DNA of 64,000 bases from Flaccisagitta enflata (GCA_965153355.1 OZ231126.1:5952001-6016000), one strand, 5' to 3'. Positions 37,901 through 52,900 are shown, counted from the stretch's first letter. Numbers and translations are program-made. The notes: generated from the letters alone by a model not told the origin.

Positions 37901-40900
37901 ATTAAAACACAAGCTATAGCTAAGAAATTGAATTGTTATCTAATTCTTCAACTAGTTGCTTATCCTTGTATTCTCAACAGAAACCACCGTCAGTGGTGCT
38001 AAGGCATGATAAGCTAAGGTGAGATGTGGATAAGAAAGGTGTCGTGGTAGTTTTCCATTAAATGCAATTCTATTCACATCAAAATATCTAATATTATCTA
38101 TTGATGGATTCATTATTTGTACCTAATTCATAGAGTTGGCCGATGTTGGAGCAAGTGCTGATGAGTATCTTATGATAAGCGACGTTCTCCTTGTCCTCGC
38201 CCGTCAGACAGTATTCCAAAATCTCGTCGGGCATGTTCAAATCGTCGCGATTGTATGAGTTGAACCTGATTGGGAGAAAACCAAAATCAACTCTTCATAG
38301 AAGGATCTCCGATCACATCATTCCGCCTGAAGCAATCATTGATCTGGGTGTCTAAATTGGAGCATTTTAAGTCGCAAGCACGTGACTCTACATGCCGCCA
38401 TATCTGTCGTTTGGTCGATCACTACCCCAGCCCACCCACATGCGAGAATTTCGCGACCCAGAGGTCGATCAGATCCGAATCCGAAACCATGTTGCATTCT
38501 TCAGATCATCAGATCATTAGATCTTCAGATCACTACCAAGTCATTCCAGACATCGTCCTTGCTCTTGTAACCCAAATAGCCTCCCTACTGGGCCAGTCCA
38601 TCACCTAATTACCATTCGACCTTTCCAAATAAACCGCTATAATTGAACCAATCGCTAGCTGGCTCATCAAACTTGTAAACTTGTAAACTTGCATAGCTAA
38701 CGTCCTTGGTACTAAGGAAAGAAACAAAACTGTTTTTCTTTCTTTTTTTTTTTCATTTGGATTTTTTTTCCACCGATCTCCATTTAGTTGACAATGGATA
38801 AAAGACAAGCGAAGACAAAAACATTTCTGTGGTGAAATATGAGTTGCATTCTCTGTCTGAGATAAAGGCAAATAGGCGAGTAGTGCTTGAAATGTTAGCC
38901 TTCGTGAGTCGCCCGTCCTCAGCCATTTTTTGGAATCGACAAATCGTCGGTTTTCAACAGAAATTCGCTGTCGACGTCGTCGATGTCGACGCTGACAGAT
39001 TTCTTGCCGAATTCCTTGAGTCTCATGAAGCCTGAGAAGATGAGCGCGTTGGGGACTTGTTCCATGTGCGTGGTCTCGAACAAGCATCCCTCGTTAATCG
39101 TGAGCGGAATCCCCACTTCGCCAATGTCGTACAAACGCGGCAACAACTCAACTGTAAGACCAATCGTAACAACAAGATAGAATCTATGTAGTCGTGTATG
39201 ATTGTCAATATAATTAAATGTAACGTAAAAAGCACGCGACTTTCTTGCCACGACCGTTGATTCCACATTTTGTCGGTTGATCCGTTGGTTAGAAACACTT
39301 TTTGGCCGCTGCTTGACAAACCGATTTTGTCAAGTGTGCTGACCCCGTGCAATGCGTGCATCCGATCTCGTTTTGGAAAATTATGATTCGCAGTGTATCA
39401 AACTTAGTACTTGTTAGCATCAAAAAAACAAAAACTAAGTTATAGCAATGACTAAACTCGTCATAACAAACATTAAAACTTGTTGACCTATAATCATGTT
39501 CTCCACAATGGACAGCATCGTATTCTTGGCCGACTCTTTACCGCTCGTAGATCTATTTTTCAGAGAGAGTCCACTTACAACCTTGAAAAAGCGTTCAAGA
39601 AACGAGGCATTTAGATAAGAAACAAAACATTACTGTGAAACTGCTAAGATGATGATCTGGATCTTGACTGGGCAACGTGTTTTGACTTAAGCAGTGGACA
39701 TGTGCATGAGACATATGGTCGGATAGATGGCTAGTCAAACAGATACAATTGCTTCATATCAAGAGGCTCCCTAGACATCCTGTAGTTCCTGGTTTGATAC
39801 AAGGCATCGCCAGGGCTGAAAATTGTGTCGAAATCTGCGATTTTCAAGGAAGCATAACAGACATACCAACAGACGGACATACGGACCCTCAAATAGAGAT
39901 GCGTTCCCGACGGACGCATCTAAAAATGCAATCTGCAAAGAAAAAAAAATACACCAATACACCTCAAAAACGGAGGAGCATTCGATCTTTTCAAAGGCGA
40001 ATTTGGCGATAAAGTCCTTATCGACTCTGGGAATGACTCGTAACAGCACTTGGTGATGAGTTTTGTGGTACAATTTCCAACACGTGGGATCATTTTCATC
40101 CAATTCAACCCCGTCTTCCGGAGACAAATCATTCGATGGCCGCAATTTGGGACGATGATCCGCCGCTACCAATATAAAACCTTTGGTGATCAAAAGATGG
40201 AAGGGCGAGAAAAACAAGGACAAGGACAAGGACTTGGGGTCGTTGAATCTGAAACTGAATTGTCAGCAAAAATCAGATTCTTCATCATTCTCTCGTCTAA
40301 CACGACTTTGGGCGTGTTTCTAGTGAAGATGAAAACTGCGTTTGTACCTGTGAAACGCGTTCACAGCGTGAACACATTTTAACAGAATTCTAACTGTTCC
40401 ATGAGGGAGTAAGCGAAGTGCGTAAGCGAGCCCGCGAATGGAGTGTAGTGCTGCGGAGTGAGTGAGCGGAGTGAGCGGTGCGAGCGAATGAACGTAGCCA
40501 GCGACCGAGTGGCCCGTTAGAAATGCGATTATCTCTGACTAGAAGAGTCCCTTTTAAGGATCATGCAGTTACCGTTGAGTGTAAGGACGAAATCGTCGCT
40601 ATCAATGCTCATCACCGGTCTCGTGGTCAACTCGCCCCGGATTCGGACACTTTCAGGTTCTCTTCGGCAGACGGTTGCGATATAACGCTGACGGAATTAA
40701 CAACACCGATACCATGGACTTGATAATCAAACACCAGGTCAACGTCACTATTCAAGCTGCTCTTTGGGCATGAATTGTTCTACACTTTTTTTTATAAGAA
40801 CGTCATTTTTTTTCGAAGGCTTCATGTTCTTATTTTCAAGGCTAAATGAAGCCTTCAACGTTCTTAGAGCGTTCTTATTTTTAAATACTATATAAACTAT

Positions 40901-49900: not shown

Positions 49901-52900
49901 TATTGTGTCCCGACATTGTGTCCCGACATTGTGTCCCGACATTGTGTCCCGACATTGTGTCCCGACATTGTGTCCCGACATTGTGTCTACATTGTGTCCC
50001 ACATTGTGTCCCAACATTGTGTCCTGACATTGTGTCCCAACATTGTGTCCAGATTGTGTCCCTACATTGTGTCCCGACATTGTGTCCTACATTGTGTCCC
50101 TGACATTGTGTCCCACATTGTGTCTACATTGTGTCTACATTGTGTCCCGACATTGTGTCCCACATTGTGTCCCGAACAACATTGTGTCCCAACATTGTGT
50201 CCCAACATTGTGTCCTACATTGTGTCCCATTGTGTCCCTACATTGTGTCCCTACATTGTGTCTCTACATTTTGTCCCTACATTGTGTCCCAACATTGTGT
50301 CCCTACATTGTGTCCCAACATTGTGTCCCGACATTGTGTCCCTACATTGTTCCTAAATTGTGTCCCTATATTGTGTCCAAACATTGTGTCCCTACATTGT
50401 GTCCAAACATTGTGTCCCAGCATTGTGTCCCAACATTGTGTCGCGACATTGTGTCCCGACATTGTGTCGCGACATTGTGTCCCGACATTGTGTCGCGACA
50501 TTGTGTCCCGACATTGTGTCCCGACATTGTGTCCCGACATTGTGTACCAACATTGTGTCCTGACATTGTGTCCCGACATTTTGTCCCCACATTGTGCACC
50601 AACATTGTGTACCAACATTGTGTCCCGACATTTTGTCCCCACATTGTGTCCCGCCATTGTGTCCCGACACTGTGTCTCGACATTAGGCTGGTTACCTGAG
50701 GGGTGAATTTGGCTCCAAATTTAAAATTCCTCCGCCATCTAACCATACATTCTAAGCGGCATTTGGGCAGTAAATCAGACAAGCAGAGGTCAGTATTTGA
50801 TCAAGAAACCCGCACGGCAACACAATGGTAAAGTATATGAAAGCAATTTTACGCCCATTGTAACTCTATAGTGTTGCCGTGCGGGTTTTCTTTCAAGATA
50901 CTGATCTCCGCTGGCCTCAATTCCTTTTTAAATATGATGTAGAGTATATGGTTAGTTGGCTGAGGTGTTCTGAAATTTGACCACATTTGACCCTCCAGGT
51001 AGCCGCCCTACTCGACATTGTGTCCCTACTGTGTCCCGTCATTGTGTCCCTACATTGTGTCCCTACATTGTGTCCTTACATTGTGTCCCTACATTGTGTC
51101 CCTACATTGTGTCCCGACATTGTGTCCCTACATTGTGTCCCTACATTGTGTCCCTACATTGTGTCCCTACATTGTGTCCCAACAGTGTCCCGACATTGTG
51201 TCCTGACATTGTGTCCCGACATTGTGTCCCTACATTGTGTCCCGACATTGTGTTCCTACATTGTGTCCCTACATTATGTCCCGACATTGTGTCCCGACAT
51301 TGTGTCCTACCTTGTCCGACATTGTGTCCTACATTGTGTCCCTACATTGTGTCCCGACATTGTGTCCCGACATTGTGTCCCGACATTGTGTCCCTACATT
51401 GTGTCCCTACATTGTGTCCCTACATTGTGTCCCTACATTGTGTCCCTACATTGTGTCCCTACATTGTGTCCCTACATTGTGTCCCTACATTGTGTCCCTA
51501 CATTGTGTCCCTACATCGTGTCCCTACATCGTGTCCTGGCATTGTGTCCCTACATTGTGTCCCGACATTGTGTCCCAACATTGTGTCCCTACATTGTGTC
51601 CCTATATTGTGTCCCGACATTGTGTCCCGACATTGTGTCCCAACATTGTGTCCCGACATTGTGTCCCAGCAGTGTATCCCAATATTGTGTCCCAACATTG
51701 TGTCCCGACATTGTTTCCCAACATTGTGTCATGAGTATCACGAGTCTGGCACGCGACTTATAGGTGTTGGCCTTGTTCATCTTTTTTTTCTATTTTTTTT
51801 TACTGTATTTTTTCCCCTCATATTTTTCTTTTTCTATCTTCCTTTTCTTATCTCCTTTTTTTATCTCCTTTTTTTCTATTTTTTTTGTCTACCTTCTTTT
51901 TTAGCTTTCTACTTTTTAGCTTACTACTTTTATAGCTTACTACTTTTTTAGCTTACTACTTTTTTAGCTTTCTACTTTTTTTCTTTCTACTTTTTTTGCT
52001 TTCTGTTAACAAATTTTTTCGCTTTCTACTTTTTTGCTTTCTCTGCATTTCTTTTTCTCATTTCTTTCTTCTCGTTTCTTTCTTCTCGTTTCTTTTCAAA
52101 TTAGTTTTTAGTCACGTGCACGCGACTCTACACCCCGCTTTGTCCGTCATTTTAGACTCTACACCCCGCTTTGTCCGTCATTTTAGAATATATCAAATCA
52201 TTCTAAGTCATGCTAAATCATTCTGTAAGTCTCGCACGCGACTTATAGGTGTTGGCCTTGTTACTTTTCTTTCTTCTTCCTCCCCTTTTACCTTATCTTT
52301 TGGTCTTTTAATCTCCGATCTCAAGGCCCCAGGGGCCCCCTGGGACCCCCATGAGAGATGGGGGTCACAACCCCAAACATAAACAGCACTGACGAATGAC
52401 CTACCTGACCATGTCTCCTTGTCTGAGCACGCCTGAAACATCGGGCAACGACAAATGATTTACCTGATCATATCTCCTTGTCTGAGCACGCCTGAAGCAT
52501 CAGGCAACAACAAATGACCTACCTGACCATGTCTCCTTGTCTGAGCACGCCTGAAGCATCAGGTAACAACAAATGACCTACCTGACCATGTCTCCTTGTC
52601 TGAGCACGCCTGAAGCATCAGGCAACAACAAATGACCTACCTGACCATGTCTCCTTGTCTGAGCACGCCCGAAGCATGAAGTCTTTCCGTGATGAGATCA
52701 GCCGCGGAATTGGAAGGGGCGCAAACGAGAATTCGAGCGGAAGAAATGTTGACGAAGATTTGCAAGATGGACTCGCAGACTGTCACCGACTTGCCAGTGC
52801 CAGGGGGACCGTAAATCACGTAAACCTAATGAAAAGGCAATATTTAGCTCACGTTATCCTGATGAGGGGCAAGGGAAAGGGGATGAATGAATGAGTAGCG

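What the first reader, a model, noticed from the sequence alone, without database searches (positions are those of the whole stretch)
38266..52640. Intact 12-exon BPI/LBP-family gene nested on the same strand inside a helicase-core intron of MOV10L1
Seen: the helicase exon ending ...GDMVR (52641) continues in phase at 38265 (FNSYNR). Between them is a phase-consistent 1794-nt spliced ORF with BPI-like N- and C-domains in the same orientation. I saw no AATAAA between its stop and the host acceptor. Known: nested genes are more often antisense, and a same-strand guest forces the host to skip all guest exons and the guest poly(A) site. Inference: expression may be mutually exclusive, or processing may be coupled, linking a piRNA-pathway helicase to a lipid-binding or innate-immune protein.
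Basis: partly seen in the sequence, partly recalled or inferred. Interest (0 to 1): 0.8.

Follow-up and report, generated by a model that had tools for sequence, protein, structure and literature searches.

The report
BPI-fold gene nested in helicase intron
A complete 12-exon gene for a lipid-binding-fold protein sits, in the same direction, inside one long intron of a MOV10L1-like RNA helicase gene of a marine organism; the layout is real but of an ordinary kind, and the mildly unusual part is that the protein lacks a secretion signal.

Summary
On the minus strand, a MOV10L1-like helicase exon ends at 52641 (AG|GT) and resumes in phase at 38265. Homologous helicases are contiguous across this join. 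The 14,375-nt intron contains a 12-exon, 1794-nt (597-aa) open reading frame on the same strand, with 11 of 11 AG acceptors and 10 GT plus 1 GC donors. It is 91% identical to an independent 587-aa protein from a transcript-sized contig. Spliced metatranscriptome contigs match exons 3 to 5 and 10 to 12.

Pfam's LBP/BPI/CETP models do not detect the protein. Two AlphaFold models nevertheless match BPI, CETP and LBP first (Foldseek E down to 3e-19; Z 17.5 to human BPI), with weak sequence and profile links to a true BPI-family protein. The family is small (28 hits among 1.84 billion representatives) and has no signal peptide, so an intracellular lipid carrier is more likely than a secreted immune protein.

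No RNA covered the host exons, so the host junction, chimeras and any coupling remain untested. Same-strand nesting is a known arrangement, though 11 guest introns is many. This is a sound annotation of modest interest.

The parts
52641..52822 (-). Host helicase exon with the Walker A motif (GPPGTGKS), ending ...GDMV + AG of a split Arg codon. Its donor is AG|GTAGGT at 52640.
   Evidence: Sequence; tblastn at 75% identity to hydrozoan Mov10l1-like proteins; Pfam AAA_11 positions 21-83/257, E 6e-13. The 5' boundary is approximate.
38266..52640 (-). Host intron of 14,375 nt (GT...AG, phase 2). It contains the whole guest gene plus about 3.4 kb of simple and tandem repeats upstream of the guest.
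38123..38265 (-). Next host exon (G + FNSYNRDD...QLYEL), in phase with the exon ending at 52641.
   Evidence: Sequence; tblastn P0008 708-757 and P0015 750-798. No Pfam hit by itself. RNA contig depth is zero here in X8 and X13.
37585..37751 (-). Host exon with helicase motif II (DEAGQ). The end of the AAA_11 domain lies here.
   Evidence: tblastn; Pfam AAA_11 213-257/257, E 1.6e-12. The 5' boundary is approximate; the donor GA|GTAAGT was read.
48688..48850 (-). Guest exon 1. The ATG at 48850 is the first in-frame ATG after the in-frame stop at 48967. The N-terminus is acidic.
48286..48369 (-). Guest exon 2 (GC donor, AG|GCAAGT).
47791..47983 (-). Guest exon 3.
   Evidence: Metatranscriptome contig X13 record 14 covers 47791-47989.
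47276..47358 (-). Guest exon 4.
   Evidence: The 85-nt gap in X13 record 14 between its exon 5 and exon 3 pieces fits this 83-nt exon plus 2 nt.
46722..46903 (-). Guest exon 5.
   Evidence: X13 record 14 covers 46722-46901.
42941..43076 (-). Guest exon 6 (start of the charged inter-domain insert).
   Evidence: X8 record 19 covers 42940-43079.
42243..42438 (-). Guest exon 7 (insert with the invariant HPF...NF motif).
41287..41383 (-). Guest exon 8.
40573..40687 (-). Guest exon 9.
39963..40180 (-). Guest exon 10.
   Evidence: X13 record 9 covers 39961-40178 and X8 record 17 covers 39961-40127.
39488..39581 (-). Guest exon 11.
   Evidence: The 92-nt gap in X13 record 9 between its exon 12 and exon 10 pieces fits this 94-nt exon.
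38919..39151 (-). Guest exon 12, with the stop codon TGA at 38921-38919.
   Evidence: X13 record 9 and X8 record 16 both end exactly at 39151.
38727..38918 (-). Probable guest 3' UTR. RNA contigs reach about 38770, where an A-rich tract begins. Only variant poly(A) hexamers are present.
   Evidence: hexamers; X8 record 15 covers 38770-38944; RNA depth is 0 in bin 38338-38726. The transcript end is inferred, not shown; the tool also skips a repeat at 38728-38769.
52395..52677 (-). 59-nt tandem array, 4.8 copies. It repeats the last ~36 nt of the host exon plus its splice donor. The first copy is the real exon end.
49207..52187 (.). Block of simple and tandem repeats in the host intron upstream of the guest, including a 13-nt unit in 142 copies at 49891-51730.

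Best explanation
Two separate genes share one stretch of DNA.

The host is a MOV10/MOV10L1 (Armitage)-type SF1 RNA helicase gene on the minus strand, with mapped exons from about 57.9 kb to 31.1 kb. Its 14.4-kb intron between helicase motifs I/Ia and II has acquired, or has grown around, an independent 12-exon gene on the same strand.

The guest has its own start codon, its own stop codon and its own transcript. That transcript probably ends 150-190 nt after the stop codon, more than 450 nt before the host acceptor. The guest encodes a 597-aa member of a small, lineage-restricted family with the two-barrel BPI/LBP/CETP (double TULIP) fold. The family has no signal peptide or membrane segment, an acidic N-terminus and a conserved charged insert of about 80 aa between the two halves. 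I infer that it is a soluble intracellular carrier of a lipid or other hydrophobic ligand.

When the host is transcribed, the whole guest is removed as part of the intron. The nesting itself is most likely incidental, a consequence of a long intron, rather than a functional link.

Shown: the gene structures, the strand, the phases, guest splicing in environmental RNA, and the fold match. Inferred: host splicing across the intron, the guest's 3' end, its location in the cell, lipid binding, and the absence of coupling.
For: Host:
- Exon ends and phases were read directly.
- 4 of 4 mapped homologues are collinear through the helicase core, with no stop inside the aligned exons except at one alignment end. 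The two that match exon 38265-38124 (P0008, P0015) carry consecutive residues across the join.
- Pfam finds MOV-10 beta-barrel, AAA_11 (both halves) and AAA_12 on the exons.
- Nearly all named proteins among the 120 best exon matches are Mov10l1, Mov10l1-like or armi.

Guest:
- It has a 1794-nt open frame over 12 exons with canonical splice sites.
- Relatives of 587-621 aa from transcript-sized contigs (about 2.1-2.4 kb) begin at the same Met region and end at the same place. This shows a stand-alone mRNA.
- Spliced contigs from two metatranscriptome studies break exactly at my exon ends 39151, 46722 and 47791, and within 1-2 nt at 39963, 42941, 46903 and 43076 (table 8).

Fold:
- Model 1 has pLDDT 59. 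Its Foldseek top 5 are BPI (two entries), CETP and LBP (two chains), at E 2e-13 to 2e-10 over 509-521 columns.
- VIA-align gives Z 17.5, rmsd 4.2 over 257 residues to human BPI 1bp1.
- Model 2 has pLDDT 55. It gives the same top 5 at E 3e-19 to 8e-16 over 554-570 columns.

Sequence links:
- The only distant phmmer hit is P0151 (E 9.7e-4 for the whole library). It carries both Pfam BPI domains.
- hhalign of the family against P0151 gives probability 68%, E 4.8e-5, over 147 columns in the N domain.
- 23 of 30 ESM Atlas feature hits are LBP_BPI_CETP clusters, with a top score of 0.95.

No signal peptide:
- The most hydrophobic 12-residue window in the first 60 residues scores 0.37-1.31 in the guest and 6 relatives, against 2.76 in P0151.
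- The best 19-residue window in the whole guest scores 1.25.
Against: - No RNA evidence exists for the host. RNA contig depth is 0 over 37560-38726 in X8 and X13.
- The poly(A) RNA-seq run of the same study as the best DNA holder (X23) placed only 2 reads on the 11.6-kb stretch, out of 12.2 million records read (about 6% of the run). Neither gene is visibly expressed in that sample.
- The spliced RNA contigs are 95-99% alike, so they may come from a population variant or a sister species.
- No DNA contig listed spans the intron. The best DNA holder, X1, may be the source of the assembly and so is not independent.
- Pfam's own BPI models fail, and so does a family profile against PDB sequences.
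- Both AlphaFold models are of low confidence, with pTM 0.50 and 0.45. The N-terminal half is the weaker part; the VIA-align match covers model residues 209-565 only.
- Whether nesting is conserved in relatives is unknown. Two metagenome scans found no locus and no genome is held.
Confidence: 0.75

Rival explanations
1. One reading: the nesting is functional. Either the host and guest are expressed mutually exclusively, or their RNA processing is coupled. Examples would be use of the guest poly(A) site truncating the helicase, or host read-through silencing the guest. This would link a piRNA-pathway helicase to a lipid-binding protein.
For: - Same strand, 11 guest introns and a non-canonical poly(A) region mean that the host must ignore 22 guest splice sites and one 3' end.
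- In Drosophila, same-strand nested genes are depleted and mostly single-exon, which is read as selection against mis-splicing (PMC3814207, passages). An 11-intron same-strand guest is therefore at the unusual end.
- Guest contigs occur in two metatranscriptome studies while host exons do not. That fits different expression, though weakly.
Against: - Nothing in the data shows interaction. No chimeric contig was listed, but contigs cannot show absence.
- The intron phases of neighbouring exons do not fit. The host intron is phase 2; guest introns 1 and 11 are phase 1.
- In mouse and human, the same and opposite orientations are about equally common (PMC11694760, passage).
- In Drosophila, nested pairs are no more co-expressed or functionally related than random pairs (PMC3814207 abstract).
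- Conservation of the nesting could not be tested.
Confidence: 0.08
2. Assembly artefact or split host. The upstream helicase exons (>= 52641) and the downstream ones (<= 38265) are not one transcription unit, and the guest lies between two gene pieces or was misjoined through repeats.
For: - About 3.4 kb of tandem and simple repeats lies between the guest and the upstream host exon.
- There are local duplications of exon ends.
- No spanning DNA contig and no host RNA were seen.
Against: - The window has no N.
- Strand, order and codon phase all fit.
- The two sides carry complementary halves of one AAA_11 domain.
- Homologues are collinear with no missing or doubled segment.
- DNA contig X1 record 1 runs from the host exon to 38517, and record 2 covers 38770-39341.
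Confidence: 0.07
3. The guest is an ordinary secreted BPI/LBP ortholog acting in innate immunity, and its signal peptide was simply missed.
For: - The best structural matches are BPI and LBP.
Against: - The guest and 6 relatives have no hydrophobic N-terminus. 5 of those 6 start at a Met (P0001, P0003, P0124, P0153, P0155); P0002 is open upstream.
- There is an in-frame stop 117 nt upstream of the ATG with no other ATG between.
- The guest has no Cys where P0151 has its N-domain Cys.
- The family is too divergent for Pfam.
Confidence: 0.1

Closest known systems
Same-strand nested (intronic) protein-coding genes of animals, as catalogued in Drosophila (Lee & Chang 2013, PMC3814207) and in mouse and human (Montibus et al. 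2024, PMC11694760)
   Same: The guest lies wholly inside one long host intron. The coding sequences do not overlap, the proteins are unrelated, and the guest has its own start codon, stop codon and stand-alone mRNA.
   Different: The guest has 11 introns. In Drosophila, 72.5% of same-strand nested genes are single-exon, and the multi-exon ones have a median of one intron (passage). No paper in the searched library holds both 'MOV10L1' and 'nested gene'.
BPI / LBP / CETP / PLTP family (Pfam PF01273 + PF02886; structures 1bp1, 1ewf, 4m4d, 2obd)
   Same: The predicted fold has two TULIP barrels and matches over the whole length of BPI, CETP and LBP. There is a weak sequence link to a protein carrying both Pfam domains. 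The core is of similar size.
   Different: The Pfam models do not reach threshold. The guest has no signal peptide. It has an acidic N-terminal extension and a conserved insert of about 80 aa (a charged helix plus a disordered stretch with an invariant HPF...NF motif) where BPI has a short linker. The family is very narrow, with 28 hits among 1.84 billion representatives.
Intracellular TULIP proteins: SMP-domain proteins, and the fungal/protist SPAC32A11.02c type described by Wong & Levine 2017 (PMC5507252)
   Same: A TULIP fold in a protein without a secretion signal, so a cytoplasmic lipid-handling role is plausible.
   Different: Those proteins have a single TULIP domain, and the SMP proteins are membrane-anchored (passages). 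The guest has the double-barrel BPI layout and no predicted membrane segment. SMP structures rank far lower here: Mdm12 Z 4.0 and Mmm1 Z 3.8.
MOV10L1 / Armitage helicases (the host)
   Same: MOV-10 beta-barrel, AAA_11 and AAA_12 domains are present. The best named matches are Mov10l1-like proteins, with hydrozoans nearest at 75% in one exon.
   Different: Only part of the gene was mapped. Orthology to MOV10L1 rather than MOV10 rests on match ranking for one 62-aa exon. A piRNA role is inferred from the family name only.

Membership tests
LBP/BPI/CETP family (Pfam definition) | Significant match to PF01273 LBP_BPI_CETP (N-terminal domain) | tested here: not met
   No hit at E <= 1 in P0001, P0002, P0003 or P0124 (4 of 4 full-length relatives). 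No hit at E <= 10 in 10 of 10 window exons tested singly. The spliced window protein itself could not be handed to the tool. Weaker links do exist: phmmer to P0151 at E 9.7e-4 and hhalign at probability 68%.
LBP/BPI/CETP family (Pfam definition) | Significant match to PF02886 LBP_BPI_CETP_C (C-terminal domain) | tested here: not met
   There is only a sub-threshold hit, in the partial relative P0126 (E 0.0092, 15.9 bits against a cut-off of 23). The other 6 proteins scanned gave none.
LBP/BPI/CETP family (structural definition) | Two TULIP barrels joined by a central sheet, superposable on BPI, LBP or CETP | tested here: met
   In two independent AlphaFold models the top 5 Foldseek hits are BPI, CETP and LBP (E 2e-13 to 3e-19, 509-570 columns). 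VIA-align gives Z 17.5 to 1bp1, 11.7 to CETP and 10.1 to LBP over about 256 residues of the central and C-terminal part. Caveat: the models are of low confidence (pLDDT 59 and 55), and the N-terminal barrel is supported less well.
LBP/BPI/CETP family | N-terminal signal peptide; extracellular protein | tested here: not met
   By hydropathy, the guest scores 0.38 and its relatives 0.37-1.31, against 2.76 for the true family member P0151. This is sequence-based only; no dedicated signal-peptide predictor was available.
LBP/BPI/CETP family | Conserved disulfide in the N-terminal domain (recalled from the BPI literature, from no call) | tested here: inconclusive
   The guest's Cys residues are at 72, 245, 344, 363, 385, 450, 484 and 543. 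None aligns with Cys165 of P0151 in the hhalign block. No alignment to BPI itself was made.
LBP/BPI/CETP family | Binds lipid or LPS in the barrel pockets | not testable with these tools
   This needs a binding assay or a structure with a ligand.
MOV10/MOV10L1 (Armitage) helicases (host) | UPF1-like SF1 core (AAA_11 + AAA_12) preceded by the MOV-10 beta-barrel | tested here: met
   Pfam on single exons gives MOV-10_beta-barrel at E 1e-10, AAA_11 at E 6e-13 and 1.6e-12, and AAA_12 at E 8e-7 and 4e-14.
MOV10/MOV10L1 (Armitage) helicases (host) | Orthology to MOV10L1 rather than MOV10 | tested here: inconclusive
   Nearly all named proteins among the 120 best matches to one 62-aa exon are Mov10l1, Mov10l1-like or armi. 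No tree was made and no MOV10 sequences were compared.
Nested (intronic) gene pair | Guest lies wholly within one host intron and has its own mRNA | tested here: met
   The guest CDS spans 48850-38919, inside intron 52640-38266. Stand-alone relatives of 587-621 aa exist, as do spliced RNA contigs. Host splicing across the intron is inferred from homology, not seen in RNA.

The most novel reading that the evidence does not exclude
In germ cells, transcription of the piRNA-type helicase gene runs through the guest and gates it, or the guest's weak, non-canonical 3' end truncates the helicase before motif II. The two products would then be made in a mutually exclusive way, and the arrangement would be kept by selection in this lineage. 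The guest would at the same time be the first intracellular double-barrel BPI-type lipid carrier.
Probability: 0.07. Interest if true: 0.6.

Novelty: new variant of a known kind. Interest (0 to 1): 0.3.

Why it matters
For annotation, the locus is a trap. Gene callers may fuse or split the two same-strand genes, and Pfam will leave the guest unnamed although it has a recognisable BPI-type fold.

For biology, the modest point of interest is the guest family. [quoted passage not shown] If the guest is truly cytosolic, it would widen the known range of intracellular lipid carriers.

The nesting itself adds one more case, with unusually many guest introns, to a well-described class. It would become interesting only if it proves conserved or if the two genes are shown to interfere.

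Tried and rejected
- Pfam on whole translated frames and on a first set of ORF references failed because of stop codons. I replaced them with relatives and exact exon references.
- My first splice model missed the true exon 6/7 ends and gave 1713 nt. Widening the search gave 1794 nt.
- I first took the stretch coding for FVFSCGH, with its GTAAGT donor at 47768, to be the end of exon 3. The relative P0001 shows the real donor is at 47790.
The part laid cannot show the host join. 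Its joints table was filled by repeat joints from the DNA run, so guest junctions had to be read from table 8.
- X23, the poly(A) RNA run, gave only 2 reads. That says nothing useful about either gene.
- A family profile against PDB sequences gave only spurious low-complexity matches.
- Two metagenome locus scans and the own-genome search returned nothing, so I have no synteny data.
- Rfam and tRNA scans of the window found nothing.
- Three look-ups of earlier scan notes found nothing relevant.
- A 26-sequence alignment that included exon fragments was too ragged and I did not use it.
- The second AlphaFold run, with 12 sequences, did not raise confidence.
- I looked for an FFAT-like motif in the conserved insert by eye and did not find a convincing one.

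Full report
**1. The observation**

The window is repeat-rich eukaryotic DNA with no N. On the minus strand, an exon encoding the helicase Walker A motif ends at 52641 and is followed by GTAGGT. The next helicase exon begins at 38265 after a pyrimidine-rich ...CAG. An Arg codon is split AG|G, so the two exons are in phase.

I mapped four Mov10l1-like proteins found with that exon onto the window by tblastn. They place collinear exons at:
- 57882-57685
- 55705-55514
- 55332-55189
- 53169-53080
- 52822-52640
- 38270-38124
- 37751-37584
- 35146-34964
- 32910-32722
- 32497-32357
- 31559-31347

Residues are consecutive across the long intron. For example, P0008 649-709 is followed by 708-757.

Pfam on single exons gives the following:
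- the MOV-10 beta-barrel
- AAA_11 positions 21-83 on the exon before the intron
- AAA_11 positions 213-257 on the second exon after the intron
- AAA_12 further downstream

The intron therefore does split the first RecA-like domain, between motifs I/Ia and II.

**2. The guest gene**

A search with one recognisable exon found three unnamed proteins of 587-621 aa from contigs of about 2.1-2.2 kb. Mapping the closest one, P0001, back onto the window and choosing splice sites that keep the frame open gives 12 minus-strand exons between 48850 and 38919.

The model has these properties:
- It has 1794 nt including the stop codon, giving 597 aa.
- 11 of 11 acceptors are AG.
- 10 donors are GT and one is a consensus GC donor.
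- The ATG is the first in frame after a stop 117 nt upstream.
- The protein is 91% identical to P0001, 60-64% identical to four other full-length relatives, and 50% identical to P0155.

So is the absence of AATAAA or ATTAAA between the stop codon and the host acceptor.

**3. RNA evidence**

One run search found DNA holders, five metatranscriptome runs with small shares, and a poly(A) RNA-seq run from the study of the best DNA holder.

On the tool's advice I laid 37560-49200.
- Two metatranscriptome runs from different studies hold spliced contigs whose pieces stop at my exon ends.
  - X13 record 9 holds exons 12 and 10, with a 92-nt gap that fits exon 11.
  - X13 record 14 holds exons 5 and 3, with an 85-nt gap that fits exon 4.
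  - X8 records 16, 17 and 19 hold exons 12, 10 and 6.
- These contigs differ from the window by a few letters per 180. They may come from variants or from a sister species.
- RNA contig depth stops near 38770, at an A-rich tract. It is zero from 38726 down across the host exon at 38265-38123.
- The poly(A) run gave 2 reads out of 12.2 million records read.

The guest is therefore transcribed and spliced as modelled somewhere in the sea. The host join, chimeras and relative expression could not be tested.

**4. What the guest protein is**

Pfam gives no BPI hit at E <= 1 for 4 of 4 full-length relatives. It gives none for the 10 window exons tested singly. One partial relative has a sub-threshold C-domain hit. 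The spliced window protein could not be submitted as such.

A full HMMER pass over 1.84 billion representatives found only 28 proteins:
- 26 are close relatives or exon-sized fragments.
- One is a repetitive 2178-aa protein.
- One, P0151 (E 9.7e-4), carries both Pfam BPI domains. Its cluster includes a plant protein.

Further links to the BPI family:
- A profile of the family aligns to P0151's N domain with probability 68% and E 4.8e-5.
- ESM Atlas features put 23 of 30 hits in LBP_BPI_CETP clusters at scores up to 0.95. The recognition value is low, so this is weak evidence.
- Two AlphaFold models (pLDDT 59 and 55) both have BPI, CETP and LBP as their five best Foldseek matches, over 509-570 columns.
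- VIA-align gives Z 17.5 (rmsd 4.2, 257 residues) to human BPI, for the central and C-terminal part.

I conclude that the guest has a BPI-type double TULIP fold and is probably a very divergent relative of the family. It fails the family's Pfam definition, and its N barrel is less well supported than the C barrel.

**5. How it differs from the BPI family**

- The guest and six relatives lack any hydrophobic N-terminus. Their scores are 0.37-1.31, against 2.76 for P0151. The guest has no membrane-like segment.
- The N-terminus is acidic.
- Between the two halves there is a charged helix and a disordered stretch. That stretch nevertheless holds invariant residues (HPF...NF...V in 12 of 12 aligned members).
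[quoted passage not shown] They also state that the known intracellular relatives have a single TULIP domain.

A soluble intracellular double-barrel carrier is therefore my best reading, at about 60%. The function is inferred from the fold alone.

**6. The nesting**

Nested genes are common.
- In Drosophila, about 10% of genes are in such structures. 71% of guests are on the opposite strand, and same-strand guests are mostly single-exon (PMC3814207, abstract and passages).
- In mouse and human, the two orientations are about equal (PMC11694760, passage).

An 11-intron same-strand guest is thus toward the rare end of a known class.

Phase arithmetic speaks against simple in-frame chimeras through neighbouring exons. 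The host intron is phase 2, and guest introns 1 and 11 are phase 1. Guest introns 3 and 7 are phase 2 and would allow in-frame joins.

I found no paper linking MOV10L1 with a nested gene. Conservation of the arrangement could not be tested.

**7. Verdict**

The structure and fold hold. The Pfam membership, the immune role and the coupling do not hold or remain untested.
- This is a new instance of a known arrangement, containing a new variant of a known protein fold family.
- Interest: 0.3.

Noticed in passing
window 52395-52677 (minus strand): A 59-nt unit is repeated 4.8 times. It copies the last ~36 nt of the host exon plus its GT donor, so the intron that holds the guest begins with four extra donor look-alikes. 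Each copy used would add 59 nt and shift the frame.
   Followed up: partly
window 36286-37622 (minus strand): A 61-nt unit is repeated 21.9 times. It likewise copies the end of the motif II exon (ending at 37585) plus its GTAAGT donor. Compared with the real exon end, the downstream copies carry a TTG-to-TAG change. This makes two host exons in a row with tandemly multiplied exon-end and donor units.
   Followed up: partly
window 15320-15621 (minus strand): A 79-nt unit is repeated 3.8 times. Each unit looks like an acceptor (…GCAG), a 29-nt mini-exon and a GTAAGT donor. The array lies just upstream of coding-looking sequence in the ORF 14754-15506. This is a third tandem array built from splice-site-bearing units in one window.
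   Followed up: partly
window 52944-52997 and 46934-46993 (minus strand): There are decayed partial copies of exon starts a short way upstream of the real exons. One copies the host Walker A exon (IYGPPGTDK...). The other copies guest exon 5 ([13 protein letters not shown]..., followed by a stop).
   Followed up: no
window 48858-48898: A perfect triplet repeat of 13.7 copies (GGC on the gene's strand) lies just upstream of the guest's ATG (8 nt away), in the presumed 5' UTR.
   Followed up: no
window 39900-48840 (guest introns): Parts of the guest's introns are very high-copy repeats. Summed DNA contig depth in run X1 is 10^4 to 10^6 there, against about 100-240 over unique parts. Many contain GTCG/GTCC-rich runs.
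   Followed up: no
family alignment A3, P0001 residues 310-324 (window exon 7, 42243-42438): The stretch predicted to be disordered between the two barrels holds residues that are invariant in 12 of 12 members (H310, P311, F312, N316, F317, V324). This suggests a short binding motif for an unknown partner.
   Followed up: no
window 28978-31284, 23255-24376, 20348-22123 (minus strand): There are long open frames of 769, 374 and 592 codons downstream of the mapped helicase exons, rich in low-complexity sequence. The first overlaps the last mapped helicase segment and may be a long C-terminal exon. The others may belong to another gene.
   Followed up: no
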